Positions 10,971-64,000 are shown, numbered from the stretch's first letter. The stretch: 64,000 nucleotides of DNA from Candidatus Woesearchaeota archaeon (GCA_018302815.1 JAGVZE010000009.1:56149-120148), one strand, 5' to 3'. The notes: generated from the letters alone by a model not told the origin. A program made the numbers and translations.

Positions 10971-10975
10971 AAAAT

Positions 10976-12174: not shown

Positions 12175-12189
12175 TTCGGGTTACACCTG

Positions 12190-12262: not shown

Positions 12263-12277
12263 AAAACAGCGCGACAA

Positions 12278-14636: not shown

Positions 14637-14778
14637 AACACCTCTCTTTTTTGTTTACGAATGAAACGTCGCGCTCTGGTAAGCTCTCTGTGCAACGAAG
14701 ACAGCGCGGTAGCGTTCTCGGCTTCAAGTTGTACGAACAAGCGGTTTAAACCACTACTGCGCTGTTTAAAACCCGTAT

Positions 14779-15765: not shown

Positions 15766-17792
15766 TCGAGCACCTTCAACTTATGGGGATTAACCTGAAC
15801 AACCGTGTTTTTGATTAACGCGAGGGATACTGCGCCCTCACCAACCTCTTTCACCACGACATCATACTCTGCGCCCTCACCCAAGTCCAAACGGCGAACG
15901 ACACCCCCCACAAGTTCAGATAACGCGCAGTCTTCACAATACGGTTTTCCCGACCTTTGGTACGAGCAAGGCGACCCAGCACAGCCAATACAAGGGTGGT
16001 GTGTGATGTCAGTCTTTTCAAAACCTGCATTGAACAGAAGTGAGGGAACGCCCTGCTCGACCTGCCCGCCCTGCCCAGTTGGGTTGGGTGGTCTGGGCGG
16101 GCAGTGTGATTTTCTATTATCGTCTACTTTTTCATTATTTACTATATTTTTATCATTATTTACTATATTTTTATCATTTCCCTGTGTGTCAAGAGAGTGA
16201 TTTTCTGCCACCCCACCGTGCCCGCCCTGCCCATTTGTTCGTGGTCGTTCTTTTTCCCCCTGTTCTGACTGTTCGAAAAGCTTAGCTTGGTTATCTTCCG
16301 TGTTATCTTCATTTTCTTCTTTTTTCGCGGTTTTCAATTTAATTCCGCGAACATAATGAACACGTTTTTCACTTTTTTCAATCCGTTTTTTTATCGACCG
16401 CGTGTACGATGCCTTTGCGTACAATTTTTTGAAAAAATCGTTTTCATCGAAACATTCAATTTCGCGGTCGTCGCAATAATCGCGGTACGCGAAGTAAACA
16501 TCATCCTTCAATTCTTTTTCATCATCCGCTTTAATCGTGCAGTCCATAACGAAACACAAAACGGGGTCGGTTTTTCGAAGGTATATTTCGCGGGTTTGCG
16601 CGACCTCCGCGCCGAACCCTTTGGCGTTCAATAATTCGTTTAATCCGTCCAAAGCGAAGTTCAACATTCCCGACAATTCGTTCGGCGTTGTGATTTTTTC
16701 ACTTTTTTTGGTATCCGCATTTTTTTCTTCAAATTTTTGTTTGAATAAAATCAAAATTGGTCTGCGCCACATCGCCGTGTCATCCTCGGGTAATTGCGGT
16801 AATTCGTTCGCCGAAAACGCGAGTTTCGCGTACACATTCAAATTAACATGCGCGCCGAATTTGTATTCCCCTGTGATTGTGTCCCCGCCCGTAATCGTTT
16901 TTATCGTTGACACGGATTGTTTATCTAAATTTTTCCCCGAAATGTCGGGCACGATGTTCGCCAGTTTACCGTGAAGGTTCACGACCGAAAATCGGTCGCG
17001 CATATTGTGCGGGCTTATCGTGCTGATGTTTTTTTGCCCGATGAATTTCGTCATTGCGCGAAGCAGTGTTGATTTTCCGTTCGCGCCCTCGCCTTCAAGC
17101 ATTAAAAAATTGGCGAATCGGTAATCGCGCAGTAAGGTATATCCAAACCATTTTTTTAATACTGCCCTGTCGTTTTGTTGTGTTGTGGGTAGGATTTCTT
17201 CGAGGAATTTTTCGAACTCTGGACATTTGGCGTTGGAGTCGTATTTCACGTCAATTTTTTGTAAAAACGGCGTTTCGGGGGTGTGCGGTGTTATTTTTTT
17301 GGTGAACACGTTTAATATTCCGTTTTGCACGCAGAAAAGTTCGGGTGGTGCTTCGGGAAATTCGGTTTTGCACGTCATGGAATATATTTTTGATGTGACT
17401 TCGTTTTTCATATTTCGCGTGGCGAACGCGCCGAGAATTTGTTGTACCAATAAATTTATTTTTTGTTTTCCGTTGGGCGTGTAATATCCGTTTTCGTAAA
17501 CGTAAATTGTCGGGCGGTCGGGGTCGCCGATGCTGATGAAATGTTGCGTTGTTAATATCGCGTCTGCGGTTTCCTGCGCGATTTCTGCCGTGCTTTTTTC
17601 GCGGTCGCTCGCATCATCGATGCCTTCGGCGCGTAATATTTTCACTGCATCTTTTTTCTGTTTTTTATTTAATTCTTTTTTCTGTGTGGGCTTCTCGTTT
17701 TTCGCTTTTTTCGTTTTTTGTGTTGAAGGTTTTGTTGGCTTGACTGCTGTTTTTCGTGGTGATGTCTTTTTGAGCTTAGTTTTCTTAACCAC
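15762..17792 (-). CDS. D5/P4-family primase C-terminal domain plus SF3 helicase
   Basis: 676 aa. 'FLMLEGEGANGKSTL' is the Walker A in the context of a P4-type primase-helicase. The N-terminus is Lys-rich. The C-terminus has a Cys cluster (CIGCAGSPC...CEDC) and a tandem DKNIVNN repeat. Confidence 0.75.
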   Translation of the reverse strand: MVKKTKLKKTSPRKTAVKPTKPSTQKTKKAKNEKPTQKKELNKKQKKDAVKILRAEGIDDASDREKSTAEIAQETADAILTTQHFISIGDPDRPTIYVYENGYYTPNGKQKINLLVQQILGAFATRNMKNEVTSKIYSMTCKTEFPEAPPELFCVQNGILNVFTKKITPHTPETPFLQKIDVKYDSNAKCPEFEKFLEEILPTTQQNDRAVLKKWFGYTLLRDYRFANFLMLEGEGANGKSTLLRAMTKFIGQKNISTISPHNMRDRFSVVNLHGKLANIVPDISGKNLDKQSVSTIKTITGGDTITGEYKFGAHVNLNVYAKLAFSANELPQLPEDDTAMWRRPILILFKQKFEEKNADTKKSEKITTPNELSGMLNFALDGLNELLNAKGFGAEVAQTREIYLRKTDPVLCFVMDCTIKADDEKELKDDVYFAYRDYCDDREIECFDENDFFKKLYAKASYTRSIKKRIEKSEKRVHYVRGIKLKTAKKEENEDNTEDNQAKLFEQSEQGEKERPRTNGQGGHGGVAENHSLDTQGNDKNIVNNDKNIVNNEKVDDNRKSHCPPRPPNPTGQGGQVEQGVPSLLFNAGFEKTDITHHPCIGCAGSPCSYQRSGKPYCEDCALSELVGGVVRRLDLGEGAEYDVVVKEVGEGAVSLALIKNTVVQVNPHKLKVLE
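16131..16175. repeat. tandem direct repeat and flanking G-rich inverted repeats inside the helicase gene
   Basis: 'ttactatatttttatcattatttactatatttttatcatt' is a 21-22 nt unit repeated twice. Next to it, 'ctgcccgccctgcccag...ctgggcgggcag' forms an inverted repeat (16056-16100), and 'gcccgccctgccca' recurs at 16223. Confidence 0.6.
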
Positions 17793-44297: not shown

Positions 44298-45023
44298 CTA
44301 ACGCGCAAGAACCACTAATGCATCACGCCAAGAAGTCCTATCAAGCTTGAATCGAGCATCGATGTACAAAGTTGTGTAAGGTTCATCCACATCCAACCTC
44401 AACACGCGGGTTCGCAGACTACGCGGACACGTAGTCATCAATGAATCCGAAACACCATAGAGATCGCGCACTTTTCGCGCCAACTGCACAGAACAGACGC
44501 GTTCAACAATAGGAACACGAACTTCTTCAAGCGGAGACGAGGCAGCTCTTGAAAGACGAACCCCCTCACTTGCGCAGTCCACTCCTTGAGCAAGAGGAGT
44601 GTAACCGTTCCTTGCTATCAATTCATCGCACACAGAAATAATATCAAAATGCATCAACTCAAACCTTCCAGAATACCTCACCGCAGAACAAGTATCAATA
44701 TAGTCAGACTCACACACCCTGTGAGCAGATTCGCACCGTCCACTCGTAAGTGCCTCGAGCGTCTCAGCCAAACTTAACGGCCGATATCTTCCGTTCACGA
44801 ACGGCTGAGATTCTGAAGCAACCGACTGCAAACCATCAATCATAAAACCATACGAATACTTCTCAAGAGGAAGACGCACAACCTCATACGAAGAAACAAC
44901 CCGCGCGTCAAAAGGAGCACTCTGCCCCGCACGCTTACGCGCAACACGCAGGCGAATGCCATCATCACGAGCGCCGGACTCGCTGAACCTGCGCTCCAAA
45001 TCACGAAGACGAGAATCGCTCAT
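44298..45023 (-). CDS. hypothetical protein, paralog family 1 (N-terminal MSDSRLRDLERRFSES)
   Basis: 241 aa. The N-terminal ~35 aa resemble those of the adjacent 265-aa gene. 4-nt start/stop overlap with it. Confidence 0.45.
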   Translation of the reverse strand: MSDSRLRDLERRFSESGARDDGIRLRVARKRAGQSAPFDARVVSSYEVVRLPLEKYSYGFMIDGLQSVASESQPFVNGRYRPLSLAETLEALTSGRCESAHRVCESDYIDTCSAVRYSGRFELMHFDIISVCDELIARNGYTPLAQGVDCASEGVRLSRAASSPLEEVRVPIVERVCSVQLARKVRDLYGVSDSLMTTCPRSLRTRVLRLDVDEPYTTLYIDARFKLDRTSWRDALVVLAR

Positions 45024-45817
45024 TGGGAATCACCTGCTGGTTTCCTAATTATTGTTCCCGCAGGAAAACGGAAGCGAATATTTCGCACATGCTCAAAAGC
45101 CACATCATTCTGCCGTCCCGGAGAAACAACCGCGCACGCAATAGAACCCTGGACGGCAAGATCAAAATAATCCACCATAAACGGAAAAGATTCTCCAAAA
45201 TGCTGCACGCTCAACTCGTCATAAACATTAAAGAATTCTCTCCGAAGAGCGCGATCCTTAACTTGCATTGAATATACATAGTTATCCGGAAATGAGCCCA
45301 TGAACGCAACCTTCCCACCCAACTCCTCACGCGCATCCCCCCTTAACCTCGCACAAGAGCCAGCAAGAGATAGATGATTATAAACCAGCCCGCACAAAGC
45401 GTCCGACCCCGGCACCAATTCTGCTCTTTGAAAACAATCAGCAGTCAACCAATACGACCTGCTCCGGCCAAAAACAGAAACAACAGAATCACGAGCGGAC
45501 GAATTGTAACCCTCAACAACAGAACGCATCAATTCCTCTAAAGTCAACAACCGTGGAACAAGCTGCGAGCCATTGAAAATGTGCGGATGCACGCACTGCC
45601 CTGCAAGCTCGCTTTCAACACGCGCGATAAGAGCGGAAACATTCGGACCGCAATAATCATCAGAGCCCGTCTCAATCAAATCCAACTCCCAACCAGAACC
45701 AATAACCGGAACATCATTACCAACACGGACACACTCCCGCGCATAACGCTCGAAGTCCGCTTTAGCACGGCTTTCTTTCCACGCTCTTTCAAGCTCACGA
45801 AGACGCTCGTCGCTCAT
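45020..45817 (-). CDS. hypothetical protein, paralog family 1 (N-terminal MSDERLRELERAWKES)
   Basis: 265 aa. Shares the N-terminal leader with the 44298..45023 gene and with the plus-strand array at 48530-50654. Confidence 0.45.
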   Translation of the reverse strand: MSDERLRELERAWKESRAKADFERYARECVRVGNDVPVIGSGWELDLIETGSDDYCGPNVSALIARVESELAGQCVHPHIFNGSQLVPRLLTLEELMRSVVEGYNSSARDSVVSVFGRSRSYWLTADCFQRAELVPGSDALCGLVYNHLSLAGSCARLRGDAREELGGKVAFMGSFPDNYVYSMQVKDRALRREFFNVYDELSVQHFGESFPFMVDYFDLAVQGSIACAVVSPGRQNDVAFEHVRNIRFRFPAGTIIRKPAGDSQ

Positions 45818-47748: not shown

Positions 47749-48416
47749 AGCTCCTCAACAATCTCTTCCTTTAGCTGCGGGTTTCTTCGCTCTTCTGCGG
47801 CTTTTTTCGCGAATCTGTGCGCTACGTGCAAAGGCTCAGGAAGCTTGTGCGGAGGAATCACCATCTTAAGAATTATTTTAGCTGCAACGTCCATTGGAAT
47901 TATGTTGCCGGTCGAGACGTAAAGCGCATTCGCGTGCTCTTTTGTCTTCACCGCTTTTCCAACCTTCTCGCCGTTCATAATTATGAAGCCGTCTTTCTCT
48001 TCGCATTCAATTAGGCTTTTGGCGATGCCGATAGTAGGCTTTGCGAGTTCGACGCCCACAAATGTCGCAGGACCGCAATTCATCGGATGAGCGATGCCGT
48101 GGCCATTGATGATGATGACATCAGGATCGTATTCCAGATCGTAATAAAGTTGGCAGATTATCGGACCTTCTCGAAATGCTGCGAAACCAGGAACATAATT
48201 CATCGGAGCTTTTGCAACGAGAAACTTGCGCTCCTTTACTTCCAAAGTTTTGTAATCAAGAACTGCGGCAGCGCATATGCACTCCTTGCCAAAGAAAATA
48301 GTCTCAAAGCCCGCGATGTATTTGATACCCTCTTCCTTGAACTCATCATCCACAACTACTTTGGATGCGACTTCAATCTGCGAATGCTTTAGATTGCCAA
48401 AATCAGGTTTTATCAT
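47745..48416 (-). CDS. nfi: endonuclease V (deoxyinosine 3' endonuclease)
   Basis: 'YVPGFAAFREGP', 'INGHGIAHP' and 'PTIGIAKS' match the endonuclease V catalytic motifs (DGxG.xHPR and PxIGVAK). Confidence 0.8.
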   Translation of the reverse strand: MIKPDFGNLKHSQIEVASKVVVDDEFKEEGIKYIAGFETIFFGKECICAAAVLDYKTLEVKERKFLVAKAPMNYVPGFAAFREGPIICQLYYDLEYDPDVIIINGHGIAHPMNCGPATFVGVELAKPTIGIAKSLIECEEKDGFIIMNGEKVGKAVKTKEHANALYVSTGNIIPMDVAAKIILKMVIPPHKLPEPLHVAHRFAKKAAEERRNPQLKEEIVEEL

Positions 48417-48529
48417 TGAGCCACCCTTTCTTTACGAAGGAATCTCAAAAAGCAGTATATAAAGCTTTCTATTTGTATTTACTGCCAAGTGGCGAAATGT
48501 TTAAATGCGGATGCGGAACTCTTCAAGAC
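48417..48529. promoter_or_regulatory. divergent promoter region between the nfi operon and the paralog array
   Basis: A 113-bp AT-rich spacer with 'tatataaag' (48459-48467) and 'tttaaatg' lies about 25-30 nt upstream of each divergent start. Confidence 0.35.
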
Positions 48530-49208
48530 ATGAGCGACGAACGATTCAGAGAGCATCAACGAGCGGTTGATTCAGGAGATATGAACGCGCTGCCAAGCCT
48601 CATAACAGAAGCAGTACGCACCAGCACGCCAATCTACAAATACGCAGGAAGAATACTCTACAATCTAAACGACAACGTTGTAAGACGCACCGCGAGTAAC
48701 GAGGGCAGACAAAGCTATCGCCTCACTCGAAGTTATCCTCATCAACAATCTCATCACACACGTTCCTAGAAGCGATCGTTACCACCTTGTTAAAGCAAGC
48801 TGCTTTTGGAGCGAAGTATTCAACAGCACATTCATCATACGAGGACTCCCCCTTCGACAAATAACAAACGGAGAACTACTTGGAACAGCCGACATAACTC
48901 CTTACTTTAGCAGAGCGAACGAAGATGCGCAAAAGCATCCGCAAGATAGAACAATACTTGTCTACAACAATAAAACAAACGCCACTCCCTGCCACTTTTT
49001 TGGACTCGAGCGCGATGCGGTCATAATTGATGAACTTCACAAAGATGGAAGAATCCACCCACTAATGATGACTGTTGGAAGAAGAACTCAACCTTTCTCA
49101 CTGACTGCATCACCCCGCCAAAATTACACGGCCATCGCCCTAACCACCAAACACGCCGAACACATACTCGGAAATCCGAACGTATTCGACTTTGAGGGAA
49201 TATTATGA
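48530..49208 (+). pseudogene. paralog family 2, copy A (frameshifted)
   Basis: The N-domain 'MSDERFREHQRAVDSGDMNALPSLITEAVRTSTPIYKYAGRILYNLNDNVVR' is in frame 1, which stops at 48769. The homologous body and the conserved C-terminus '...TKHAEHILGNPNVFDFEGIL' continue in the +1 frame to 49208. Confidence 0.5.
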
Positions 49209-49866
49209 GCGACGAGAAATTCAGAGAGTATCAACGAGCAGTTGATTCAGGAGACATTGAAGCGCTGCCAAGCCTCATAACAGAAGCAGTACGCACCAGC
49301 ACGCCAATCTACAAATACGCAGGAAGAATACTCTACAATCTAAACGACAACGTTGTAAGATCACAGACAAAGTCATTCCATCGCTTGAACTCAACCTAAT
49401 CAACAACGCAGTCGTACGCCCTCCGGGATACGAATACGTCCATGCAGTCAAAGCGAGTTGTTTTTGGAGCAGCGTATTCGACTGCCGTTTTCTAATCAGA
49501 GAAACACCTCTTCGCCAAATGGCAAATGGCGCTCGGATCGGCACATTCGATATCAGCCCATACGGCAACCGAGCGAGCGCTGATGCAAATAAACCTGCGC
49601 AGGAAAGAGCAGTTCTCGTGCACGGCAAAAAGACCCCAGACACACCCGGACTGTTCTTTGGCCTTGAACATAATGCACTAACAATCTCAGATGTTCGAAA
49701 AGACGGCACAGTCCATCCACTCACAATACATTTGGGAGAATCACGCCAGCACTACACCCTATATTCATCCAACAATCGAAATCAGACCGCAATCCCCCTC
49801 ACAACCAAACACGCCGAACACATACTCGGAAATCCGAATGTCTTTGATTTCGAGGCGATAAAATGA
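49205..49866 (+). pseudogene. paralog family 2, copy B (frameshifted)
   Basis: The N-domain is 98% identical to copy A. Its frame stops at 49399. The body, homologous to copies A and D, continues in the -1 frame (listed ORF 49519..49866) and ends '...TKHAEHILGNPNVFDFEAIK'. ATGA overlaps lie at both junctions. Confidence 0.5.
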
Positions 49867-50654
49867 GCGATGCGGAGTTCAGAAAATACGAACGCGCGGT
49901 GAACGAAGGAGATATCGATGCCATACCTCAATTAATCACTGCGGCGCTAAGAACAAACACGCCGATTCACAAGTATTTACCAACGATAAATGACAATCTA
50001 AACCAAAACGTAATCAGAACGCTCGAAGGAAGCGAACTTATGGATTTGAGAATGTATCGCGTGCATTCCATCCCTGAAGCCGCAGCGATACTCGAACGCT
50101 CAGGAAGAGTGTTGCCGTCGCTTGAAATTATCGCGCTCAATCACGAGATAACCGGATTTGCCGGAAAAGAAAACTCAGACATCCTCATGAAAGAGAGCAT
50201 CGTAAGATTCGACGTTCCATATTTTGTGAGAGCCTCGCACATTTTCAGATTGGCACACGAACAGGGAATACGGGGCACTCATGAAGAACTAATTGAGCGC
50301 ATGTCAACATATCAAGCTTTAACAGCCGCTCAAATAGAGAGAACACGATGCACAAGGTCCATCTCACAAATTCTCCAAACCGCAACCAGGCACGAACTAT
50401 CACAGCTATACGAACTATCACAATTATTCTTGATCGACCAATCGATGCGCGTCACCCTTGAAATAATTTATCCTTATCGCCAAGAAGCGCACACCAACCC
50501 ACACGAGCAACACATATTCGTTCGAAAAATTGCAGAACATATCGAATGCCAGTCCAACCCGTTCATCTTCAACGAGGCCCTCATGATCCCGACCGTCAGC
50601 CCAAAAGCTGAACACATTCTTGGCAATCCGAACGTGTTTGAGTTCCCTGAATAA
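49863..50654 (+). CDS. paralog family 2, copy C (intact, 263 aa)
   Basis: A single frame holds the N-domain 'MSDAEFRKYERAVNEGDIDAIPQLITAALRTNTPIHKY', a body homologous to copies A and B ('RVLPSLEIIALNHEIT' versus 'DKAIASLEVILINNLIT'), and the C-terminus 'KAEHILGNPNVFEFPE'. Confidence 0.5.
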   Translation: MSDAEFRKYERAVNEGDIDAIPQLITAALRTNTPIHKYLPTINDNLNQNVIRTLEGSELMDLRMYRVHSIPEAAAILERSGRVLPSLEIIALNHEITGFAGKENSDILMKESIVRFDVPYFVRASHIFRLAHEQGIRGTHEELIERMSTYQALTAAQIERTRCTRSISQILQTATRHELSQLYELSQLFLIDQSMRVTLEIIYPYRQEAHTNPHEQHIFVRKIAEHIECQSNPFIFNEALMIPTVSPKAEHILGNPNVFEFPE

Positions 50655-50719: not shown

Positions 50720-51127
50720 TTGGTCATGCGATATTATCTGGACACTTCAATTTGGCTCGACTATTATGAAAAAAGAGGAAAGAATGGAGAAGAGGCCGTA
50801 AAACTCATACTTAAAATAATGGAAAGACAGAGGGTTGTTTGTTTTTCTGATTATCACACCATAGAGTTAAAGCGTCTAAATTACAATCTTGAGCAAATAG
50901 CTGAAATGCTCAAAATTGTAAAACCTCACCTGCTCAGAAGAATACACCTGCAAAGACACCACTTTAGGACCTCACGACAACTTGCGTCTCAACGCTCAAT
51001 TCCTCCAGGAGACGCCCTGCATGCCTTGCTTGCTAAAGAAAATGACGCCACACTAATATCAAGAGACGCTGATTTTGAAAAACTCAAAGACCTCTGTGAA
51101 ACAAAGAAACCAGAGAATATTCACTGA
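50720..51127 (+). CDS. PIN-domain protein (VapC-like)
   Basis: 'YYLDTSIWLDYY' is the N-terminal PIN motif. '...DALHALLAKENDATLISRDADF' is the C-terminal PIN segment. Confidence 0.7.
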   Translation: MVMRYYLDTSIWLDYYEKRGKNGEEAVKLILKIMERQRVVCFSDYHTIELKRLNYNLEQIAEMLKIVKPHLLRRIHLQRHHFRTSRQLASQRSIPPGDALHALLAKENDATLISRDADFEKLKDLCETKKPENIH

Positions 51128-51375
51128 AATTGTTTTTCAAGCTCCTCAAACGCTTCCTCGCGCGCCTTATGCAGCTCCTCATCGGTCGTCTTCCTGTTCG
51201 ACGCGCCGTACATCTTGTACACTCTTTGGCGCGCCTCTTCAAGCTCGAGCTGTTTTAACTTATCGCGCATCGCCTCGCGGATGAATTCAGTCTTTGTAGT
51301 ATAGTGATGCTTCTTGATTGCCTTCTCAACGCTATGCGCGAACTCCTGCTCTAATTTCAAACTAACAGTTTCCAT
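51121..51375 (-). CDS. ribbon-helix-helix (CopG-like) protein, convergent with the PIN gene
   Basis: 'METVSLKLEQEFAHSVEKAIKKHHYTTKTEFIREAMRDKL' follows the RHH pattern. Its 3' end overlaps the PIN gene's 3' end by 7 nt on the opposite strand. Confidence 0.55.
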   Translation of the reverse strand: METVSLKLEQEFAHSVEKAIKKHHYTTKTEFIREAMRDKLKQLELEEARQRVYKMYGASNRKTTDEELHKAREEAFEELEKQFQ

Positions 51376-52126: not shown

Positions 52127-52666
52127 TCATATTTTCGACCTCACCGCTTTATCAGAAATAATCGCGCTATTGCCTGTCGGGTCCTCGATAGACATCTTAA
52201 GCTTCTCAGAACCCCACAAGACATTCTGTAACTTCTTAAGCATGTTCTTCGCTTTCTTCCTGTCTTCCTCTTCTTCAGCACTATCACGCAAAAGTTCAAT
52301 CTGCTTCTTGAACTTCAAAATAACGCCCTCTATATTTGAAACAAAACCTTCAGCGTTCACTCCCGGCTCCATAGAACCCACGTGAGGAATCTTGATAATG
52401 CCCTCGGAACTTCTAACGACGCGCACAGACAAATCATCCTTGCCGTCAACCTCGAATGTGAACTTGCACGGCTCTTTTTGCTCAGCAGCCTCGACATCCG
52501 CCTTATGATAATGACAATTCGAACAATGCATGCTGAAAACGAAAATCTTGCCAAAAAACGGAATCTCGCTTTGAGCCTCAGCCAAAGTCAAATTCTTAGT
52601 GTTGCACATAGGACAAGGCTGTCCTGCGAGCGATTCTGACCCCAAATCCTTAACATCATTTGCCAT
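52127..52666 (-). CDS. ZPR1-type zinc-finger protein
   Basis: 'CPMCNTK...EIPFFGKIFVFSMHCSNCHY' matches the ZPR1 zinc-finger (CxxC-x25-CxxC) and the following beta-rich module. Confidence 0.55.
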   Translation of the reverse strand: MANDVKDLGSESLAGQPCPMCNTKNLTLAEAQSEIPFFGKIFVFSMHCSNCHYHKADVEAAEQKEPCKFTFEVDGKDDLSVRVVRSSEGIIKIPHVGSMEPGVNAEGFVSNIEGVILKFKKQIELLRDSAEEEEDRKKAKNMLKKLQNVLWGSEKLKMSIEDPTGNSAIISDKAVRSKI

Positions 52667-52733: not shown

Positions 52734-52982
52734 TCAATCATAGATATTCTTGCGGTGGCCGACCTCAATCACCAAAATCAAAAGGCGTTGATGTTCAAGA
52801 TCCGCGATAACGCGATAATCTCCCACGCGCAAACGATATGTCTCTTTGCCAACAAGCCTTCTAAGAAAAGCTTGCGGACGCACCCTTATCCTCTCAAGCG
52901 CAGCACTTATCCGCAACTGAACAGAACGTTCAAGCTTCTCAAACTGCTTTAACGCAGAATCAGAAAACACCATAGAATACAT
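52734..52982 (-). CDS. relE: RelE/ParE-family toxin
   Basis: 'SDSALKQFEKLERSVQLRISAALERI...YRLRVGDYRVIADLEHQRLLILVIEVGHRKNIY' is a canonical RelE/StbE sequence. Confidence 0.75.
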   Translation of the reverse strand: MYSMVFSDSALKQFEKLERSVQLRISAALERIRVRPQAFLRRLVGKETYRLRVGDYRVIADLEHQRLLILVIEVGHRKNIYD

Positions 52983-53200
52983 CAGAGCTTGAGCCTCTTC
53001 TTTACCTGCTCAAAAGTGTGAACCTTGCCCAGCTTTATCTCCTCACGTGACTTCTCCATCGATCTTTTTGTCTCCTCGCTCAACTCCTGCGTATCCTCAA
53101 TCAAATCCCAAATCACATCCTCAAAGCTCTCATTCGAGAAAAGCTTACGCTTCTCGAGCTTTTTATGCAGTTCCTCGGATATCTGTATCGTCGTTGCCAT
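52982..53200 (-). CDS. putative antitoxin of the RelE pair
   Basis: 72-aa acidic protein directly upstream. Its stop overlaps the toxin start by 1 nt. Confidence 0.5.
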   Translation of the reverse strand: MATTIQISEELHKKLEKRKLFSNESFEDVIWDLIEDTQELSEETKRSMEKSREEIKLGKVHTFEQVKKRLKL

Positions 53201-53282: not shown

Positions 53283-55328
53283 ATGCAACTCAACTGGGTG
53301 AACATTCACAACATACGAAGCTATACAAACGCCCGAATAGAATTCCCAACAGGCATTGTCATGCTATCAGGAGACATCGGCTGCGGAAAAAGCACTATAC
53401 TGCAAGCGATAGAATTCGCGCTTTTCGGGCTCTTGCGCGCGGAATTATCAGGAAACTCCCTGCTTCGAAACGGCGCTCTCAACGGCAGCGCAGAATTATG
53501 CTTTTCAATCGGACCAAACAAATACATCATAAAGCGAACCCTCAAACGCGGCAAAAGCGTCGAACAAGACGCAGGATACCTCATCACTAACGACGTCAAA
53601 CAAGAAGCCACAGCCACAGAACTAAAAAGCAAAATCCTCGAACTGCTCGGCTACCCTGAAGACCAACTCACCAAAGCCAAAAATTATCTTTATCGATACA
53701 CAGTCTACACCCCGCAAGAAGAAATGAAACGCATAATCCTTGAAGAAAATGAGCAAAGAGTGTCTCTTCTTCGAAAAGTCTTCGACATAGACAAATACGC
53801 GCGCATAAAAACCAACGCCGCGACATACGCCAAAGCCCTTCGCGAAAGAAAACGCGCATTCGAAGCTGCCAGCGCAGACCTTCCCGAAAAAAGAAAACAA
53901 GCCGAACAATGCGAACACGAACTCGCCATTTGCGACAAACAACTAAAAGAACTCGCGCCGCAGCTCTCAATATCAAAAGACTTTCTAATAAAAGCCAAAC
54001 AAGACATTTTGGAACTTGAGAACAAACGCTCGCAGGCGGAAAACACTTTACGCGAATTCCACGTCAAAAAAACACAACTCGCATCCAAAGAACAACAGCA
54101 GAACGCAGTGTTATCTGATCTAAAAATCCTAACTGAACAAACAGCGACAATACCTGAACAAACACCCATTGAACAGCCAATCGCGCCCGCACTCCAATCC
54201 ATCCAAAAAGATATCCTGCTAAAAGAGGCGCAGCTTCGCAGCTCCACGATCAAAACAACGGAATTCACAACGCTAAAAAAACAGGCAAGAGAAAGCTCGC
54301 AAAAAATCATCAGCCTCGCGCAATGCCCGACCTGCCTTCAGACAGTCAGCGACGGACACAAACACTCCATCATCTCAAAACAAGAACAAACCATCGAAGA
54401 ATACGACTCACACATTTTAAACCACAAAAACGCAACACAAGCCGCTGAAAAAGAGCTGAGCGAACTTAAAACCAGGCTTGAGGAATTGCGAAAACAGGAA
54501 AGAGACTTCGCAGTCAATTCTGCGCGAGCAAAACACAAAGAGCAGTTGACTGTCAGAAAAACAATGCTCGAAAGCCAACACTCAATCATCTCACAAAGCA
54601 TCCAAACCTTGCGCCAAGAAACAATACTGCTCGAACAGCAGACAAAACTTAACACTGAACTTACCAACACATATGAAACTGCCAGAAAAACACTTGACGA
54701 CGCAGGAGCGCTTGAACGCTCCCTTAGCATACAGCACGCGGGACTCTTCCAGAAAAAAGAAACACTTTCAAGAACTTTGATAATCCACAAAATAGACATA
54801 GAACGCAAAGAAAAAGCCATAGCGCAGCTCGATACGACAAACAAACGGCACTATTTTGTCACAGACTACTTCACGCCCCTGCTTGACATAATGGAAAAAC
54901 ACGTCATGGCGAGAATCCACCACGAATTCGACGCGCTATTCCAACAATGGTTCGCAATGCTCGTAGAAGACCTGATGACCGCGCGATTGGATGATACGTA
55001 CACGCCAATAATCTCGCAGAACGGATACGACACCGAAGTTGAAAACCTGAGCGGAGGAGAAAAAACAGCGTGCGCACTCGCATACCGCCTCGCATTGAAC
55101 AAGACAATCAACTCGCTCATTTCAGGAATAAAAACAAAAGACCTGCTGATACTTGATGAACCAACCGATGGATTCTCAGCAGAACAGCTAGACAAACTGC
55201 GCGATGTGCTCTCGCAGCTGAACCTCAATCAAATCATCATCGTAAGCCACGAACAAAAAGTTGAGGGCTTCGCTAACCAAGTCATAAGAATTCGAAAAGA
55301 GAATCACCAGAGCATCATCAGCGCTTGA
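53283..55328 (+). CDS. Rad50/SbcC-like ATPase with coiled coil and CPTC zinc hook
   Basis: 'VMLSGDIGCGKSTILQAIEFALFG' is the Walker A. The long coiled coil has a central 'AQCPTCLQTV' zinc hook. 'LSGGEKTACALAYRLAL' is the signature motif and 'LLILDEPTDGF' the Walker B/D-loop. At 681 aa it is short for an archaeal Rad50. Confidence 0.75.
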   Translation: MQLNWVNIHNIRSYTNARIEFPTGIVMLSGDIGCGKSTILQAIEFALFGLLRAELSGNSLLRNGALNGSAELCFSIGPNKYIIKRTLKRGKSVEQDAGYLITNDVKQEATATELKSKILELLGYPEDQLTKAKNYLYRYTVYTPQEEMKRIILEENEQRVSLLRKVFDIDKYARIKTNAATYAKALRERKRAFEAASADLPEKRKQAEQCEHELAICDKQLKELAPQLSISKDFLIKAKQDILELENKRSQAENTLREFHVKKTQLASKEQQQNAVLSDLKILTEQTATIPEQTPIEQPIAPALQSIQKDILLKEAQLRSSTIKTTEFTTLKKQARESSQKIISLAQCPTCLQTVSDGHKHSIISKQEQTIEEYDSHILNHKNATQAAEKELSELKTRLEELRKQERDFAVNSARAKHKEQLTVRKTMLESQHSIISQSIQTLRQETILLEQQTKLNTELTNTYETARKTLDDAGALERSLSIQHAGLFQKKETLSRTLIIHKIDIERKEKAIAQLDTTNKRHYFVTDYFTPLLDIMEKHVMARIHHEFDALFQQWFAMLVEDLMTARLDDTYTPIISQNGYDTEVENLSGGEKTACALAYRLALNKTINSLISGIKTKDLLILDEPTDGFSAEQLDKLRDVLSQLNLNQIIIVSHEQKVEGFANQVIRIRKENHQSIISA

Positions 55329-55938
55329 AAACGCAATCGACTTCATCTTTTAACTGCTGGAAAAGCACAGAATGAACAGAGCCTTCGCTGCGCTTGATGA
55401 AAATCTTCGCAAGCTCAGTGTAATACCACTGCTGCTCCACTTTGCCCTTGTGGAATTTTAACCAAGTGACTTCTCCGCGATTCTGCAAGTCGATTTTTGT
55501 CGAACGGATGTTGTCAAGCTTATCAGCGCAAGCGACAAGCAGAACGTCAACCGGAGCGGTCTTTAGAAACTCAATAGTGTGCTTCTTGCGAACTTCCCAC
55601 GGCTCGTTGTTGTGGTGAGGCTCTGTGCACCCCTCAACAATAAAAGCCACACGCTCGCCGAACTCTTTTTTAATATCCTCAAGAGTGAACTTGGTGTCTT
55701 CAACAACATCATGCAAAAGCGCGGCGATAACAACATCCTCCTCGCACCCAAGCTCTATCAGAGTTCTTGCCGCGCCCAGAGGGTGAACGATATACGGAAC
55801 TGCAGTTCCCTTGCGATACTGCCCTCTGTGTGCCATTGCCGCGAATTCGACTGCCCTGAACATACGCTCATTGCGCGCAGGCACGTTTTCCTCGTTCATA
55901 TATTTGGGAGAAATCGAGCGGTATAAAAAAGTACCCAA
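55318..55938 (-). CDS. HD-domain (p)ppGpp-hydrolase-like protein (SpoT/Mesh1-type small alarmone hydrolase)
   Basis: 'AHRGQYRKGTAVPYIVHPLGAARTLIELGCEEDVVIAALLHDVVEDT' is the canonical Rel/Spo HD hydrolase motif set (HxGQxRK...PYIxHP...LLHDxxEDT). Confidence 0.7.
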   Translation of the reverse strand: MGTFLYRSISPKYMNEENVPARNERMFRAVEFAAMAHRGQYRKGTAVPYIVHPLGAARTLIELGCEEDVVIAALLHDVVEDTKFTLEDIKKEFGERVAFIVEGCTEPHHNNEPWEVRKKHTIEFLKTAPVDVLLVACADKLDNIRSTKIDLQNRGEVTWLKFHKGKVEQQWYYTELAKIFIKRSEGSVHSVLFQQLKDEVDCVFKR

Positions 55939-55971: not shown

Positions 55972-56469
55972 ATGATCGAATGGATAGCACTCATCATCCT
56001 GCTCTTATTTTGCACCGCAGGACTCGTCTTATGTTTGACAGGAATAGGAGGAACTTTCATGATGTTTTTAGGAGCGCTCCTCTATAACTTACTGCTTTGG
56101 AACATGAACATTTCGTTAAACACACTTGCAATACTATTTGTTTTAGCTTTCGCAGGAGAAGTGCTTGAATGGATGCTGACTCTTGTCGGCGTTAAGTCGC
56201 AGGGCGTCTCGCGCTACGGACTCATCGGAACAATCGCAGGAGCAGTAGTTGGCGGAATGCTCCTTAGCATATTCCCCATAATAGGAACAATAATAGGCAT
56301 CTTCCTTGGCTCGCTAATAGGCGCGTTCCTTTTAGAATTATACAACGCACGCGACACAAGAAGAGCATTCAAAGCGGCAAAAGCCGCAGTGCTTGGACGA
56401 ATGCTCACCTCGGTTTGCAAAACAACAATCGCGCTCATTCAAATATTAATAATTGTAAGAACCATTTAA
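55972..56469 (+). CDS. DUF456-like small membrane protein
   Basis: 165 aa with four hydrophobic helices and Gly-rich TM segments (GTIAGAVVGGML). Confidence 0.45.
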   Translation: MIEWIALIILLLFCTAGLVLCLTGIGGTFMMFLGALLYNLLLWNMNISLNTLAILFVLAFAGEVLEWMLTLVGVKSQGVSRYGLIGTIAGAVVGGMLLSIFPIIGTIIGIFLGSLIGAFLLELYNARDTRRAFKAAKAAVLGRMLTSVCKTTIALIQILIIVRTI

Positions 56470-57908: not shown

Positions 57909-59987
57909 ATGGTGAAAATAACGCAGGTGCGCAAGCGCGACGGCAGATTAGAACAGTTCCAACCTGAAAAAATCAAGGCGGCAATAGAGAAAACGTTCCT
58001 TGCGCTCAAACGCAAAGACGCAAAATCAGCGGCAAAAGCCACCGAACAAGTCCTAAAAGAAATCGATAAATACTTCACTCACAACGTCATTCCCACAGTC
58101 GAAGACATCCAAGACATCGTAGAAGAGACTCTTCTTAAGAATAAATTCGCGGACGCCGCAAAAGCATTCATACTCTATCGCGAAAAACACAAAGAACTAC
58201 GCGAGTTCAAAACATTCCTTGGAGTGCGCGACGAACTCAAACTCCCAACAAACGCCATCAGAGTCCTTGCCGCGCGATATCTTTTGCGCGACGAAAAAGG
58301 CCACATCACAGAAACACCAGCAAGGCTGTTTAGACGAGTAGCCAAGACTGTCGCGCAAGCGGACGCACTCTACACCAAAGGAACACTCAAAAAAACCGAA
58401 GACACATTCTACGACATGATGGCAAACCTAGAATTTTTGCCCAACACTCCGACACTAATGAACGCAGGAGCTCCCCTTGGCCAACTAAGCGCGTGCTTCG
58501 TCCTTCCAATAGAAGACAGCCTGCCCGACATTTTCAACGCGGTCAAATACACCGCAATAGTCCACCAAAGCGGAGGAGGCACAGGATTTAGCTTCTCATC
58601 GCTGCGACCAAAAGGAGACATAGTAAAAACAACAAAAGGAGTCGCATCAGGACCTGTAAGCTTCATGAACGTCTTTGACATCACAACTGAAGTTCTAAAG
58701 CAAGGCGGAAAACGAAGAGGCGCAAACATGGGAATCCTTTCCTGCGATCACCCAGACATACTAGAATTCATCACTGCGAAATCCACCGAAGGCAAACTCT
58801 CAAACTTCAACCTATCAGTATCCGTTACAGATGCATTCATTGAAGCTGCGCAAAAAAACAAAGAATACGCGCTCATAAACCCGCGAACAAAAGAGAAAAC
58901 ACGCACGATAAACGCCAAACAAATCCTGGATCTGATTGTAGACAACGCTTGGAAAAATGGAGACCCCGGACTTATATTCATAGACGAAATAAACCGCAAA
59001 AATCCCACAGCTGCGCTTGGCAAGATACAAAGCACCAACCCCTGCGGAGAACAGCCATTGCACCCGAATGAAAGCTGCAACCTTGGAAGCATCAACCTCA
59101 CACGAATGCTCAAAAACGGAAAATTTGACTGGGACAAATTCAAAAAAACAATCCACAACGCAGTCCACTTCCTAGACAACGTAATTGACGTCAACAAGTA
59201 TCCTCTTCCGCAAATCGAAGAAACAACAAAAGCGAACAGGCGCGTAGGACTTGGAGTCATGGGCTTTGCCGAACTGCTCATAAACCTAGGACTGCCATAC
59301 GATTCTACTTTGGCGCTAAAGCTAGCGGAAAAACTCGCCAAATTCCTAAACGATGAAGCTCGAAAAGCCAGCAACAAATTCGCCGAAGAAAGAGGAAGCT
59401 TTCCCAACTTTGAAAGAAGCACGCACAAAGAAACGCTCAAAGCCACACGAAACGCCACAGTCACAACAATCGCCCCGACCGGAACAATATCCATAATCGC
59501 AGCAGCCACCTCAGGAATAGAACCGCTATTCGCAGTAACATTCGTTCGCAACGTCCTTTCAGGAGCGCACCTACTAGAAACAAATCCCTCTTTCGAAACT
59601 ATCGCTCGCAAAAAAGGATTCGCATCCAAAGCGCTAATGCTCAAAATCGCGAAAACCGGAAGCGTACAAGGACTCAAAGAAGTGCCTAAAGACATCCAAA
59701 AAATATTCAAGACCGCGCTTGAAATCAAGCCCGAAATCCACGTCAAAATGCAGGCAGCATGGCAAAAATACTGCGACAACGCAGTCAGCAAGACAATAAA
59801 CCTACCGGAAAACTGCAAACCTGACGATGTCAAAAAAGCATACCTTCTCGCGCACAAACTAAAATGCAAAGGCATCACAGTCTACAGATACGGCAGCAAA
59901 AAAGAACAAGTGCTCACCACAGCTGAAGTCGTAATCGCACAAAGCGACTTTGCCGGCGGCAACATCTGCAACGAATGCCTCTTCTAG
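57909..59987 (+). CDS. nrdJ: adenosylcobalamin-dependent ribonucleotide reductase (class II, NrdJ) with an N-terminal ATP-cone
   Basis: 'VRKRDGRLEQFQPEKI' is the ATP-cone. 'NPCGEQPL' is the catalytic Cys loop. The C-terminal redox pair is 'CNECLF'. 692 aa. Confidence 0.9.
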   Translation: MVKITQVRKRDGRLEQFQPEKIKAAIEKTFLALKRKDAKSAAKATEQVLKEIDKYFTHNVIPTVEDIQDIVEETLLKNKFADAAKAFILYREKHKELREFKTFLGVRDELKLPTNAIRVLAARYLLRDEKGHITETPARLFRRVAKTVAQADALYTKGTLKKTEDTFYDMMANLEFLPNTPTLMNAGAPLGQLSACFVLPIEDSLPDIFNAVKYTAIVHQSGGGTGFSFSSLRPKGDIVKTTKGVASGPVSFMNVFDITTEVLKQGGKRRGANMGILSCDHPDILEFITAKSTEGKLSNFNLSVSVTDAFIEAAQKNKEYALINPRTKEKTRTINAKQILDLIVDNAWKNGDPGLIFIDEINRKNPTAALGKIQSTNPCGEQPLHPNESCNLGSINLTRMLKNGKFDWDKFKKTIHNAVHFLDNVIDVNKYPLPQIEETTKANRRVGLGVMGFAELLINLGLPYDSTLALKLAEKLAKFLNDEARKASNKFAEERGSFPNFERSTHKETLKATRNATVTTIAPTGTISIIAAATSGIEPLFAVTFVRNVLSGAHLLETNPSFETIARKKGFASKALMLKIAKTGSVQGLKEVPKDIQKIFKTALEIKPEIHVKMQAAWQKYCDNAVSKTINLPENCKPDDVKKAYLLAHKLKCKGITVYRYGSKKEQVLTTAEVVIAQSDFAGGNICNECLF

Positions 59988-63664: not shown

Positions 63665-64000
63665 TATTCATTCACCTTCTCAACCGACTTCTCATTCGAC
63701 TTTTTCGACACCAGCCCCGGAAGACCCGTGCCTACAGGAACAGTCTGGTTCAACATAACATTCTCCACAACGCTATTGAGATAATCAACCTCGCCCTTGA
63801 GCGCTGCGTTAATCACGTGCTTGATAGGAGTTTCGAAAGAAGCTCTTGCGAGCACGGACGCTTTCTCGCTCACGACACCATACCTCGTGATTCCCTTTAT
63901 CTCGCCGCTCACAGTCATAGTGTCTGCCACAAGCATGATGTGGCGGATATCAACGTTAAGACCCTGAGTCTCGATAACCTTGAAAACCTCATCGATAATC
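63664..64000 (-). CDS. rpoA2: DNA-directed RNA polymerase subunit A'' (partial, 5' end beyond the window)
   Basis: The C-terminal segment 'ARASFETPIKHVINAALKGEVDYLNSVVENVMLNQTVPVGTGLPGLV' is the conserved A''/Rpb1 C-terminus. The reading frame stays open to the window edge. Confidence 0.8.
   Translation of the reverse strand, partial: IIDEVFKVIETQGLNVDIRHIMLVADTMTVSGEIKGITRYGVVSEKASVLARASFETPIKHVINAALKGEVDYLNSVVENVMLNQTVPVGTGLPGLVSKKSNEKSVEKVNE

What the first reader, a model, noticed from the sequence alone, without database searches (positions are those of the whole stretch)
53283..55938. A short Rad50-like zinc-hook ATPase lacks an adjacent Mre11 and is convergent with a SpoT/Mesh1-type HD hydrolase
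The 681-aa SMC-like ATPase has complete Walker A, signature, D-loop and CPTC hook but a short coiled coil. No Mre11-type phosphoesterase (D..H..GNHD motifs) is adjacent. The nearest genes are a RelBE pair upstream and, convergently, an HD protein. That HD protein has the full HxGQxRK...HPL...LLHDxxEDT constellation of (p)ppGpp hydrolases, a family rarely discussed in archaea.
Basis: partly seen in the sequence, partly recalled or inferred. Interest (0 to 1): 0.5.

Follow-up and report, generated by a model that had tools for sequence, protein, structure and literature searches.

The report
Ordinary Woesearchaeal Rad50 beside acquired alarmone hydrolase
The 681-residue ATPase is the standard short Rad50 of Woesearchaeota archaea, which in this lineage sits apart from its partner genes herA and mre11, and the neighbouring HD gene is a bacterial-type small alarmone hydrolase inserted there only in this species, so the pairing is coincidental and both genes are ordinary.

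Summary
A 681-aa Rad50-like ATPase has all ABC motifs and a central CPTC hook. It converges on an HD protein that has every RelA/SpoT hydrolase residue. No Mre11 lies in the 64-kb window. The interpretation does not hold.

- **Rad50 length:** about 680 aa is the normal Rad50 length across Woesearchaeota and related DPANN archaea (at least 584 species genomes).
- **Mre11 partner:** in one group of relatives, including reference genome AR20, the same protein lies directly downstream of mre11, once as herA-mre11-rad50.
- **Unlinked clade:** the window belongs to a large sister clade in which rad50 lies alone. A matching clade of 80 Mre11 genes has no rad50 nearby, and 42 of them follow herA. One genome (L056) carries both genes 5.7 kb apart. 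So Mre11 is most likely elsewhere in this genome, but I could not check that directly.
- **HD protein:** it is a RelH-type small alarmone hydrolase. Its nearest relatives outside this lineage are bacterial.
- **Insertions:** the HD gene and the ParE-type toxin-antitoxin pair are missing from the same syntenic slot in the closest relatives, so both are lineage-specific insertions.
- **Prior reports:** RelA/SpoT homologues in archaea, including Woesearchaeota, are already published.

Both genes are new members of known kinds. Interest is low.

The parts
53283..55328 (+). rad50: 681-aa Rad50-family ABC ATPase with a short antiparallel coiled coil and a zinc hook. This is the normal Woesearchaeal Rad50 orthologue.
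   Evidence: ORF. Best NCBIfam, PDB and fold matches are archaeal or eukaryotic Rad50. AF2 model. Orthologues lie directly downstream of mre11 in 19 or more related genomes.
53370..53396 (+). Walker A / P-loop, GDIGCGKST (residues 30-38)
   Evidence: G30, G35, K36, S37, T38 invariant in alignment A1
53715..53717 (+). Q-loop glutamine Q145 (in YTVYTPQE)
   Evidence: invariant
54324..54335 (+). Zinc-hook CPTC (C348, C351) at the apex of the coiled coil
   Evidence: C348, P349, C351 invariant. The loop at 345-356 lies between the two long helices in the model.
55047..55061 (+). ABC signature motif LSGGE (589-593)
55143..55172 (+). Walker B and D-loop, LLILDEPTDG (621-630)
55248..55250 (+). H-loop histidine H656
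   Evidence: invariant
55318..55899 (-). Small alarmone hydrolase (RelH-type, HD_4 domain only), 193 aa from ATG 55899. The longer TTG ORF reaches 55938. It is a lineage-specific insertion of bacterial origin.
   Evidence: Pfam HD_4 87 bits, TIGR00691 N-terminal region. PDB 7qoe, 4yf1, 7qoc at E 1e-32 to 1e-25. Nearest outside relatives sit in bacterial gene contexts. Absent from the syntenic slot in relatives.
55813..55815 (-). HD1 arginine (R29 in 193-aa numbering), equivalent to RelH R24, which stacks on the base
55783..55785 (-). HD2 histidine (H39), a metal ligand equivalent to RelH H34
55696..55713 (-). HDVVED (H63, D64, E67, D68): metal-binding HD pair and catalytic ED pair
55510..55524 (-). 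DKLDN (D126, K127, N130): HD5 and HD6 motifs
52734..52982 (-). ParE/RelE-superfamily toxin (82 aa). With the next ORF it forms an insertion between ZPR1 and rad50.
   Evidence: PF05016 37 bits. Absent from this slot in L007, L014-L016 and L018.
52982..53200 (-). Putative antitoxin (72 aa)
   Evidence: Weak PF02697 / DUF7557 hits just below threshold. Its stop and the toxin start overlap.
52127..52666 (-). ZPR1-type zinc-finger protein: the conserved upstream neighbour of rad50 in this sub-clade (context only)
55972..56469 (+). DUF456 membrane protein: the conserved downstream neighbour of rad50 in close relatives (context only)
57909..59987 (+). Ribonucleotide reductase large subunit, part of the conserved backbone (context only)

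Best explanation
The region holds two unrelated, ordinary genes that became neighbours through lineage-specific insertions.

1. **The ATPase is the housekeeping Rad50 of a Woesearchaeota (DPANN) archaeon.** By analogy with characterised Rad50 proteins, two ABC heads dimerise on ATP. A coiled coil about one third shorter than in model archaea ends in a Zn-coordinating CPTC hook. The protein works with an Mre11 nuclease dimer to bind and process DNA ends. In the ancestral DPANN arrangement the genes were herA-mre11-rad50. In the large clade that contains this window, rad50 was moved to a ZPR1 / RNR neighbourhood, while herA-(small genes)-mre11 stayed together elsewhere. The missing neighbour therefore reflects gene order, not biochemistry. 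The clade-level pattern is shown. The presence of mre11 in this particular genome is inferred.

2. **The HD protein is a single-domain small alarmone hydrolase of the bacterial RelH type.** It has a complete Mn2+ site and all catalytic residues, so it most likely removes the 3'-pyrophosphate from (p)ppGpp-like nucleotides. It was acquired from bacteria by a narrow Woesearchaeal lineage and inserted between rad50 and DUF456. A ParE-type toxin-antitoxin pair was inserted on the other side of rad50.

No functional coupling between Rad50 and the hydrolase is indicated.
For: **Rad50 identity**
- All ABC motifs and the hook are present.
- The best sequence matches are archaeal Rad50 models and P. 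furiosus / M. jannaschii Rad50 structures.
- The AF2 model has a Rad50 architecture, and the top fold matches are Rad50.

**The length is normal for the clade**
- The 120 listed best homologues are 612-730 aa, most of them 676-690 aa, and those that carry a name are labelled Woesearchaeota.
- At least 584 species-representative genomes hold a relative.

**Partner Mre11**
- In 19 of 80 loci an Mre11 (Metallophos; E 1e-34 to a P. furiosus Mre11 probe) ends at the rad50 start. In 4 more it lies within about 1 kb.
- AR20-type and two other large contigs show mre11 followed by a 679-684-aa rad50.
- L075 shows herA-mre11-rad50.

**Clade structure**
- In the Rad50 NJ tree the window sits inside an 'unlinked' clade that is separate from the operon group.
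- The only member of that clade with an Mre11 inside its fetched locus is L056, 5.7 kb away.
- The 80 closest metagenomic relatives of the L056 Mre11 have no rad50 within the available flanks. 48 of them have at least 2.5 kb of downstream sequence, and 42 have herA upstream on the same strand.
- Those 80 plus L056 form an Mre11 clade that excludes all 20 operon-type Mre11.
- One of them is NCBI MBI2575899.1 from a Woesearchaeota MAG.

**No relaxation of constraint**
- Segment-wise conservation of Rad50 is the same in the operon and unlinked groups. This includes the coiled-coil base, where Mre11 binds in solved complexes, and the hook.

**Insertions**
- The relative at 56% identity has ZPR1-rad50-DUF456-GT-RNR with neither the toxin-antitoxin pair nor the HD gene.
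- The same backbone is seen in L014-L016 and L018.
- HD homologues lie next to rad50 only in contigs of the window's own species.

**HD identity**
- HD_4 scores 87 bits against a cutoff of 27.
- RelH of Leptospira levettii, Lmo0812 and RelH of C. glutamicum match at E 4.5e-32 to 1.8e-25, against about 1e-17 for Mesh1.
- All nine residues listed for RelHCg (R24, H34, H58, D59, E62, D63, D122, K123, N126; PMC9293644) are present as R29, H39, H63, D64, E67, D68, D126, K127, N130.

**Bacterial origin of the HD gene**
- Identity falls from 84% and 62% (unnamed short contigs; gene context read only for the 62% hit, which has no Pfam-annotated neighbours) straight to 58% or less. The named proteins in that range are bacterial.
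- Two of those relatives sit in uppS-cdsA and coaX-gmhA-hldE contexts.
- The literature already infers bacterial origin for DPANN RelA/SpoT homologues (PMC8407392; PMC3153485).
Against: - I could not search the rest of this organism's genome, so the presence of mre11 and herA there is inferred from clade-level patterns and one same-contig case (L056).
- The orphan-Mre11 set was chosen as the nearest relatives of the L056 Mre11, so its monophyly is partly built in. None of those contigs could be tied to an assembly that also holds an unlinked rad50.
- The Rad50 score (128 bits) is far below the NCBIfam equivalog cutoffs (700-1087 bits).
- A PADLOC LmuB model matches end to end at 127 bits.
- The in vivo substrate of the hydrolase is unknown. 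Mesh1-type enzymes are also reported to act on NADPH (my own knowledge).
- The trees are simple NJ trees without support values.
Confidence: 0.8

Rival explanations
1. Mre11-independent Rad50. In this lineage mre11 has been lost, and the short Rad50 acts alone or with a different nuclease, for example as a DNA tether or a chromosome-organising SMC-like protein.
For: No Mre11, HerA or NurA in the 64 kb. 51 related genomes with at least 1.5 kb of upstream sequence have no Mre11 within their fetched flanks (up to 10 kb). DPANN genomes are reported to lack many repair genes (PMC8407392).
Against: A matching clade of stand-alone (herA-)mre11 loci exists in Woesearchaeota. L056, a member of the unlinked Rad50 clade, carries both genes on one contig. 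Conservation of the coiled-coil base, hook and ATPase motifs is indistinguishable from Mre11-linked orthologues.
Confidence: 0.07
2. Defence module. The SMC-like ATPase is a Lamassu-type LmuB (or a related Rad50-like defence ATPase). The HD protein and the toxin-antitoxin pair are its effector and accessory genes in a defence island.
For: PADLOC LmuB model PDLC03859 matches end to end (127 bits, E 3e-37), with weaker PtuA, GajA and AriA N-terminal hits. Two toxin-antitoxin pairs and an integrated element lie in the window. A Lamassu structure appears among the fold hits at rank 40.
Against: Orthologues that sit directly after mre11 hit the same LmuB model equally well (99-123 bits), so the hit does not discriminate. 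No LmuA or LmuC-like gene is adjacent, and the HD protein has no PADLOC hit. The gene has relatives in at least 584 species genomes, is embedded in a conserved housekeeping backbone in the window's closest relatives, and its family has Mre11 and HerA linkage. The HD neighbour is confined to one species.
Confidence: 0.03
3. Functional coupling. The alarmone hydrolase and Rad50 form a convergent, co-regulated pair (for example through antisense overlap of their 3' ends), linking nucleotide-alarmone signalling to double-strand-break repair.
For: The two genes overlap by 11 nt tail to tail. The arrangement is identical in six independent assemblies of the species.
Against: Those six contigs are the same species at about 100% identity, so they are not independent evolutionary evidence. 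None of the 80 species-level rad50 loci has an HD_4 gene nearby. The closest relatives have DUF456 directly after rad50. The two bacterial relatives whose gene contexts were read have no link to rad50 or sbcC.
Confidence: 0.03
4. The HD enzyme has a non-(p)ppGpp role. In an archaeon with no alarmone synthetase it acts on other substrates ((pp)pApp, NADPH as for Mesh1, or 3'-pyrophosphorylated tRNA), or it detoxifies nucleotides made by toxins from bacterial neighbours.
For: No synthetase domain was found in the window or in the related loci examined. SAH relatives in the PDB list include (p)ppApp hydrolases (7smg, 6yvc). This is compatible with the main explanation about origin and fold.
Against: The residues proposed to read the guanine base (R24 and N126 equivalents) are retained. 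The closest solved relatives are RelH-type SAHs (7qoe, 7qoc), and the structural paper places the RelHCg active-site residues in the six HD motifs needed for alarmone hydrolysis (PMC9293644). The rest of the genome was not searched for a synthetase. RelA/SpoT-family genes are reported in 41.7% of Woesearchaeota.
Confidence: 0.25

Closest known systems
Archaeal Rad50 (P. furiosus, M. jannaschii; Mre11-Rad50 complex)
   Same: Split ABC head with Walker A, Q-loop, signature, Walker B, D-loop and H-loop. Antiparallel coiled coil. Apical CP-x-C zinc hook. Orthologues sit in an mre11-rad50 (and herA-mre11-rad50) operon in sister lineages.
   Different: About 200 residues shorter than the 872-895-position curated archaeal models. 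Each arm is about 175-200 residues. Scores fall far below the equivalog cutoffs. In this clade the gene is not next to mre11. The cognate DPANN Mre11 has GSHD instead of GNHD in motif III.
Bacteriophage T4 gp46 and other short-coil Rad50 homologues
   Same: A naturally shortened coiled coil that keeps the zinc hook. Published coil lengths run from about 100 A (phage) to about 250 A (bacteria), about 300 A (archaea) and about 600 A (eukaryotes) (PMC7752040). This protein falls between the phage and model-archaeal values.
   Different: This is a cellular, vertically inherited gene with relatives in at least 584 species genomes, not a phage gene. Its sequence is closest to archaeal Rad50.
RelH-type small alarmone hydrolases (C. 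glutamicum RelH 7QOC/7QOD, Leptospira levettii RelH 7QOE, Listeria Lmo0812 4YF1)
   Same: Single HD_4 domain of about 190 aa. All six HD motifs and nine catalytic or metal residues are present. The alignment is full-length, including the C-terminal helices.
   Different: It is encoded in a DPANN archaeon. No cognate synthetase has been identified. Activity is untested.
Mesh1 / HDDC3 (metazoan SpoT homologue)
   Same: Same HD fold and catalytic residues.
   Different: The match is clearly weaker (E about 1e-17 against 1e-32 for RelH-type), so the protein does not belong to the Mesh1 subgroup.
Lamassu LmuB (SMC-like defence ATPase)
   Same: Similar size, Rad50-like head and short coiled coil. 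A PADLOC LmuB profile matches end to end.
   Different: Mre11-linked orthologues match that profile equally well. There is no LmuA or LmuC partner. The gene has core-gene distribution and synteny.

Membership tests
Rad50/SbcC family | ABC-ATPase head with Walker A, Q-loop, signature motif, Walker B, D-loop and H-loop | tested here: met
   All motifs are present and invariant in alignment A1. PDB Rad50 heads match both lobes.
Rad50/SbcC family | Long antiparallel intramolecular coiled coil with an apical CxxC zinc hook (no SMC hinge) | tested here: met
   CPTC at 348-351 is invariant. The AF2 model shows helices 170-344 and 357-560 flanking a hook loop. Zinc binding itself cannot be tested here.
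Rad50/SbcC family | Score above the curated NCBIfam Rad50 equivalog cutoffs | tested here: not met
   The best score is 127.7 bits against a cutoff of 700. Only the head regions align. The shortfall fits a shorter, divergent coil but fails the formal threshold.
Rad50/SbcC family | Closest fold among solved structures is Rad50 rather than SMC, MukB or RecN | tested here: met
   The top 11 Foldseek hits are Rad50 chains (C. thermophilum, M. jannaschii, P. furiosus, human).
Rad50/SbcC family | Cognate Mre11/SbcD nuclease gene adjacent (operon) | tested here: not met
   None in the window. However, orthologues in 19 or more related genomes are directly downstream of mre11.
Rad50/SbcC family | Cognate Mre11 encoded somewhere in the same genome and forming a complex | not testable with these tools
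The clade-level evidence is indirect: stand-alone herA-mre11 loci and the L056 contig with both genes.
Small alarmone hydrolase (RSH superfamily, HD-only) | RelA/SpoT-type HD domain (Pfam HD_4) above the gathering threshold | tested here: met
   87.3 bits against 27.2. TIGR00691 positions 1-123 match.
Small alarmone hydrolase (RSH superfamily, HD-only) | Six HD motifs: base-stacking Arg, His, HD, ED, Asp-Lys, Asn | tested here: met
   R29, H39, H63, D64, E67, D68, D126, K127, N130 align with RelHCg R24, H34, H58, D59, E62, D63, D122, K123, N126.
Small alarmone hydrolase (RSH superfamily, HD-only) | Single-domain protein without synthetase, TGS or ACT domains | tested here: met
   The protein is 193 aa and only HD_4 / HD hits were found.
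Small alarmone hydrolase (RSH superfamily, HD-only) | Mn2+-dependent hydrolysis of (p)ppGpp | not testable with these tools
   This needs an enzyme assay.
Mesh1 subgroup of SAHs | Closest similarity to Mesh1/HDDC3 rather than to other SAH subgroups | tested here: not met
   Mesh1 chains match at E 1.7e-17 to 2.6e-16, against 4.5e-32 for RelH of L. levettii and 1.1e-31 for Lmo0812.
Lamassu (LmuB) | LmuB profile match that discriminates from housekeeping Rad50 | tested here: inconclusive
   PDLC03859 scores 127 bits on the window protein, but it also scores 99-123 bits on Rad50 genes directly downstream of mre11.
Lamassu (LmuB) | Adjacent LmuA effector (and LmuC) | tested here: not met
   The neighbouring proteins scanned (HD hydrolase, DUF456, p177, the toxin-antitoxin pair, p160) have no PADLOC hits, and together with ZPR1 no Lamassu-type Pfam domains.
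Type II toxin-antitoxin, ParE/RelE superfamily | Toxin domain above threshold with a small upstream antitoxin gene | tested here: met
   PF05016 scores 37 bits against 23 for 52734..52982. The overlapping 72-aa ORF has antitoxin-like hits just below threshold (26.3 against 27.9).

The most novel reading that the evidence does not exclude
The hydrolase is kept by a host-dependent DPANN archaeon that makes no alarmones of its own. It would destroy (p)ppGpp or (pp)pApp-type nucleotides that reach the cell from bacterial neighbours, from hosts, or from toxin-type synthetases, making it a protective or interference function rather than part of a stringent response. Separately, the clade-wide splitting of rad50 from herA-mre11 could mean that Rad50 is regulated, or partly acts, independently of Mre11 in these archaea.
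Probability: 0.1. Interest if true: 0.5.

Novelty: new member of a known kind. Interest (0 to 1): 0.2.

Why it matters
It matters little beyond annotation. The analysis shows three things:
- 'AAA/SMC family ATPase' entries of about 680 aa in Woesearchaeota are the genuine, shortened Rad50 of these archaea.
- A large Woesearchaeal clade has separated rad50 from a retained herA-mre11 cluster.
- DPANN Mre11 carries GSHD in place of the textbook GNHD motif, so motif-based searches miss it.

The alarmone hydrolase adds one more case to the already reported bacterial-to-DPANN transfers of RelA/SpoT-family genes. What such an enzyme does in an archaeon is a real but already recognised open question.

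Tried and rejected
- **Motif regex for Mre11.** A six-frame regex for Mre11 motifs (D.H...GD..., GNH[DE]) found only a chance GNHE at 63884..63895. This test proved inadequate because DPANN Mre11 has GSHD, so I replaced it with a profile built from real DPANN Mre11 sequences.
- **Matching contigs by length.** I compared the contig lengths reported for Mre11 hits with those reported for unlinked Rad50 hits, hoping to place both genes on one contig. There were no matches.
- **Top Mre11 hits on large contigs.** The best Mre11 hits on 0.1-0.9 Mb contigs were all operon-type. They did not inform on the unlinked clade.
- **Accession look-up of orphan Mre11.** I looked up ten orphan Mre11 sequences of similar GC content, hoping to find an accession near MBS3148100.1. 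That failed, but one proved to be from a named Woesearchaeota MAG, GCA_016188175.1.
- **Shared synteny.** I found no shared synteny between the orphan-mre11 loci and the window, apart from RNR in 4 loci.
- **Conserved downstream protein.** A conserved protein of about 470 aa downstream of rad50 in about 25 loci looked like a possible partner. It has a signal peptide and a TM segment and has no homologue in the window, so I rejected it as a repair partner.
- **Composition.** The GC and GC3 of the HD gene do not stand out from its neighbours, so composition gives no evidence for recent transfer.
- **Literature.** A search for Woesearchaeota with Mre11/Rad50 found nothing specific.
- **Lamassu/LmuB.** I tested this reading and rejected it.


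Full report
**What is there.** The window comes from a Woesearchaeota (DPANN) archaeon. The exact HD protein is NCBI MBS3148100.1, 'HD domain-containing protein [Candidatus Woesearchaeota archaeon]'. The same locus occurs at about 100% identity in six other public contigs. ORF 53283..55328 (+) encodes 681 aa. ORF 55318..55938 (-) encodes 206 aa from a TTG start. Public gene calls, homologue lengths and a TTTTTTATA box about 25 nt upstream favour ATG 55899, which gives 193 aa. The two genes overlap tail to tail by 11 nt. Upstream of the ATPase, on the opposite strand, lie a ParE/RelE-superfamily toxin (PF05016) and a 72-aa antitoxin-like ORF.

**The ATPase is a Rad50.** It has Walker A (30-38), Q145, CPTC (348-351), LSGGE (589-593), LLILDEPTDG (621-630) and H656. 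All are invariant among twelve family members. Its best curated matches are the five archaeal Rad50 equivalog models. It reaches only 128 bits against cutoffs of 700-1087, because only the heads align. The best solved-structure matches by sequence are P. furiosus and M. jannaschii Rad50 heads. An AlphaFold2 model (pLDDT 83.8) shows a split head, an ascending helix at 170-344, a hook loop at 345-356 and a descending helix at 357-560. Its top Foldseek hits in the PDB are Rad50 chains from fungi, archaea and human. The arms are about 175-200 residues, and the protein is about 200 residues shorter than the 872-895-position archaeal models. A review gives coil lengths of about 100 A for phage, about 250 A for bacteria, about 300 A for archaea and about 600 A for eukaryotes (PMC7752040). 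This protein falls between the phage and model-archaeal values.

**The short length is the clade norm.** The 120 listed best homologues are 612-730 aa, most of them 676-690 aa, and those that carry a name are labelled Woesearchaeota. A scan of one genome per species found at least 584 genomes with a relative. The best 80 are labelled Woesearchaeota, Nanoarchaeota, Pacearchaeota or Aenigmatarchaeota, and some carry an apparently wrong 'Methanosarcinales' label.

**Mre11 is the partner of this family.** It found a 390-410-aa protein ending at the rad50 start codon in 19 of the 80 loci, within about 1 kb in four more, and 5.7 kb downstream in L056. These proteins are calcineurin-type phosphoesterases (PF00149 in 18 of 18). 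They match the Mre11 probe at E down to 1e-34. Their third motif is invariably GSHD, not GNHD. A profile of them retrieves more than 6,400 proteins, and the named ones are DPANN 'DNA repair exonuclease' entries. The three I looked up on large contigs, including the AR20-type reference Woesearchaeon, all show mre11 followed by a 679-684-aa rad50. L075 shows herA-mre11-rad50. The 680-aa protein is therefore the canonical Rad50 of these archaea, not a paralogue alongside a longer 'true' Rad50.

**Why there is no mre11 here.** In an NJ tree of 84 Rad50 sequences, the Mre11-linked genes and the unlinked genes fall into separate groups. The window sits deep in the unlinked clade. Of its members, 51 have at least 1.5 kb of upstream sequence and no Mre11. 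The one unlinked-clade locus that contains an Mre11 is L056. I searched metagenomes with the L056 Mre11. All 80 closest relatives (48-56% identity) lack rad50 within the fetched flanks, and 48 of them have at least 2.5 kb downstream. Forty-two have a HerA helicase (PF01935) upstream on the same strand, often with small MazG or NUDIX genes in between. In an Mre11 tree, these 80 plus L056 form a clade that excludes all 20 operon-type Mre11. One of them is MBI2575899.1 from Woesearchaeota MAG GCA_016188175.1, where a PLD-like gene follows it, not rad50. Rad50 conservation is the same, segment by segment, in the linked and unlinked groups. That includes the coiled-coil base, the hook and the ATPase motifs. 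The simplest reading is a single ancestral relocation of rad50 away from herA-mre11, with both genes kept. I could not search the rest of this organism's genome, so mre11 there is inferred, not shown.

**The neighbours are insertions.** The closest relatives (45-59% identity: L007, L014, L015, L016, L018, L044) share the backbone EndoV ... ZPR1 (divergent) rad50 - DUF456 - glycosyltransferase-like - RNR. In L007, ZPR1 ends 88 nt from rad50, and DUF456 starts 24 nt after it. In the window, the toxin-antitoxin pair sits in the first gap, the HD gene sits in the second, and a 177-aa ORF follows DUF456. No HD_4 homologue occurs in any other rad50 locus, or anywhere in the 2.3 Mb of related DNA fetched, except in contigs that were retrieved through the HD protein itself. 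The Rad50-HD adjacency is therefore specific to one species and gives no evidence of a functional link.

**The HD protein.** It matches Pfam HD_4 (87 bits) and the N-terminal hydrolase part of TIGR00691 spoT_relA. Its best solved relatives are the small alarmone hydrolases RelH of Leptospira levettii (7QOE, E 4.5e-32), Listeria Lmo0812 (4YF1, 1.1e-31) and RelH of C. glutamicum (7QOC, 1.8e-25). These rank ahead of the long Rel enzymes (about 1e-20) and Mesh1 (about 1e-17). The nine active-site residues listed for RelHCg (PMC9293644) are all present. Beyond two close clusters (84% and 62% identity, on unnamed short contigs; gene context was read only for the 62% hit, which has no Pfam-annotated neighbours), identity falls to 58% or less. 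The named proteins in that range are bacterial (Bryobacteraceae, Chloroflexota), and two of those relatives sit in uppS-cdsA and coaX-gmhA-hldE contexts. This points to acquisition from bacteria. Archaeal SAHs acquired by transfer were described in 2011 (PMC3153485). RelA/SpoT homologues 'acquired from Bacteria' were reported in 41.7% of Woesearchaeota genomes (PMC8407392). The most likely activity is Mn2+-dependent 3'-pyrophosphohydrolysis of (p)ppGpp-type nucleotides. The physiological substrate in this archaeon is unknown, and I saw no synthetase in the DNA available to me.

**Rivals.**
- A Lamassu-type defence ATPase was suggested by an end-to-end PADLOC LmuB hit. Rad50 genes directly downstream of mre11 hit the same model equally well. 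No effector partner is present, and the gene has core-gene distribution.
- True loss of Mre11 cannot be excluded for this one genome, but the clade-level data make it unlikely.
- Functional coupling of Rad50 and the hydrolase has no comparative support.

**Verdict.** Both genes are ordinary members of known families whose adjacency is accidental. The minor new points are annotation-level: the short Rad50 is clade-wide, rad50 is split from herA-mre11 across a large Woesearchaeal clade, and DPANN Mre11 has GSHD.

Noticed in passing
window 5258-17792: Probable integrated mobile element next to an intron-containing tRNA. The tRNA at 5258-5371 was found by Rfam but missed by ARAGORN. It is followed by a tyrosine integrase (5434-6717), a 1091-aa protein with no Pfam hit (6881-10156), a serine resolvase (11638-12174), a prim-pol (14779-15765) and a D5-like primase-helicase (15762-17792).
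   Followed up: partly
loci L032-L097 and L099-L178 (alignment A2): DPANN Mre11 proteins invariably have GSHD instead of the canonical GNHD in phosphoesterase motif III (S83 invariant in 18 of 18). The five stand-alone Mre11 sequences I read at this motif also have it. Motif-based searches for Mre11 therefore miss them. The effect on metal binding is unknown.
   Followed up: partly
L009:10098-11513, L094:13982-15373, L097:13257-14696 and about 22 other loci: A conserved protein of about 470 aa with an N-terminal signal sequence, a TM segment and no Pfam hit lies directly downstream of rad50. It occurs in both Mre11-linked and unlinked Woesearchaeal loci. It has no homologue in the window.
   Followed up: partly
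L009:6887-7933 (also L010, L011): A GGDEF-domain protein (a putative diguanylate cyclase) is encoded immediately upstream of rad50 in a Woesearchaeota genome. This is a bacterial-type second-messenger enzyme in an archaeon.
   Followed up: no
window 44298-45817 and 48365-50654: A family of tandem paralogues with no Pfam hit shares an N-terminus of the form MSD..F R.YERAV..GDI.A.P.LIT. Copies at 48530-48703 and 49205-49363 are short fragments. The only differences from another assembly of the same species (L002) fall here, at repeats of about 160 bp.
   Followed up: partly
window 50720-51375: A second toxin-antitoxin pair, with a PIN-domain toxin (50720-51127, +) and a ribbon-helix-helix protein (51121-51375, -), lies 2 kb upstream of the ParE pair. 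Unusually for a VapBC pair, the two genes are convergent and overlapping.
   Followed up: no
L133:5686-6816 and L180:1362-2363: PLD-family (PLDc_2) nuclease-like genes lie next to stand-alone mre11 in two Woesearchaeal loci. In L133, MazG and NUDIX pyrophosphohydrolase genes sit between herA and mre11.
   Followed up: no
L095:942-3530: A MoxR-type AAA ATPase interrupted by an intein with a LAGLIDADG endonuclease domain, in the AR20-type Woesearchaeon.
   Followed up: no
record titles (e.g. L014, L019, L021): Many GTDB-representative MAGs that carry this Woesearchaeal Rad50 are deposited as 'uncultured Methanosarcinales archaeon'. Their gene content and synteny match Woesearchaeota, so the labels are probably wrong.
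   Followed up: no
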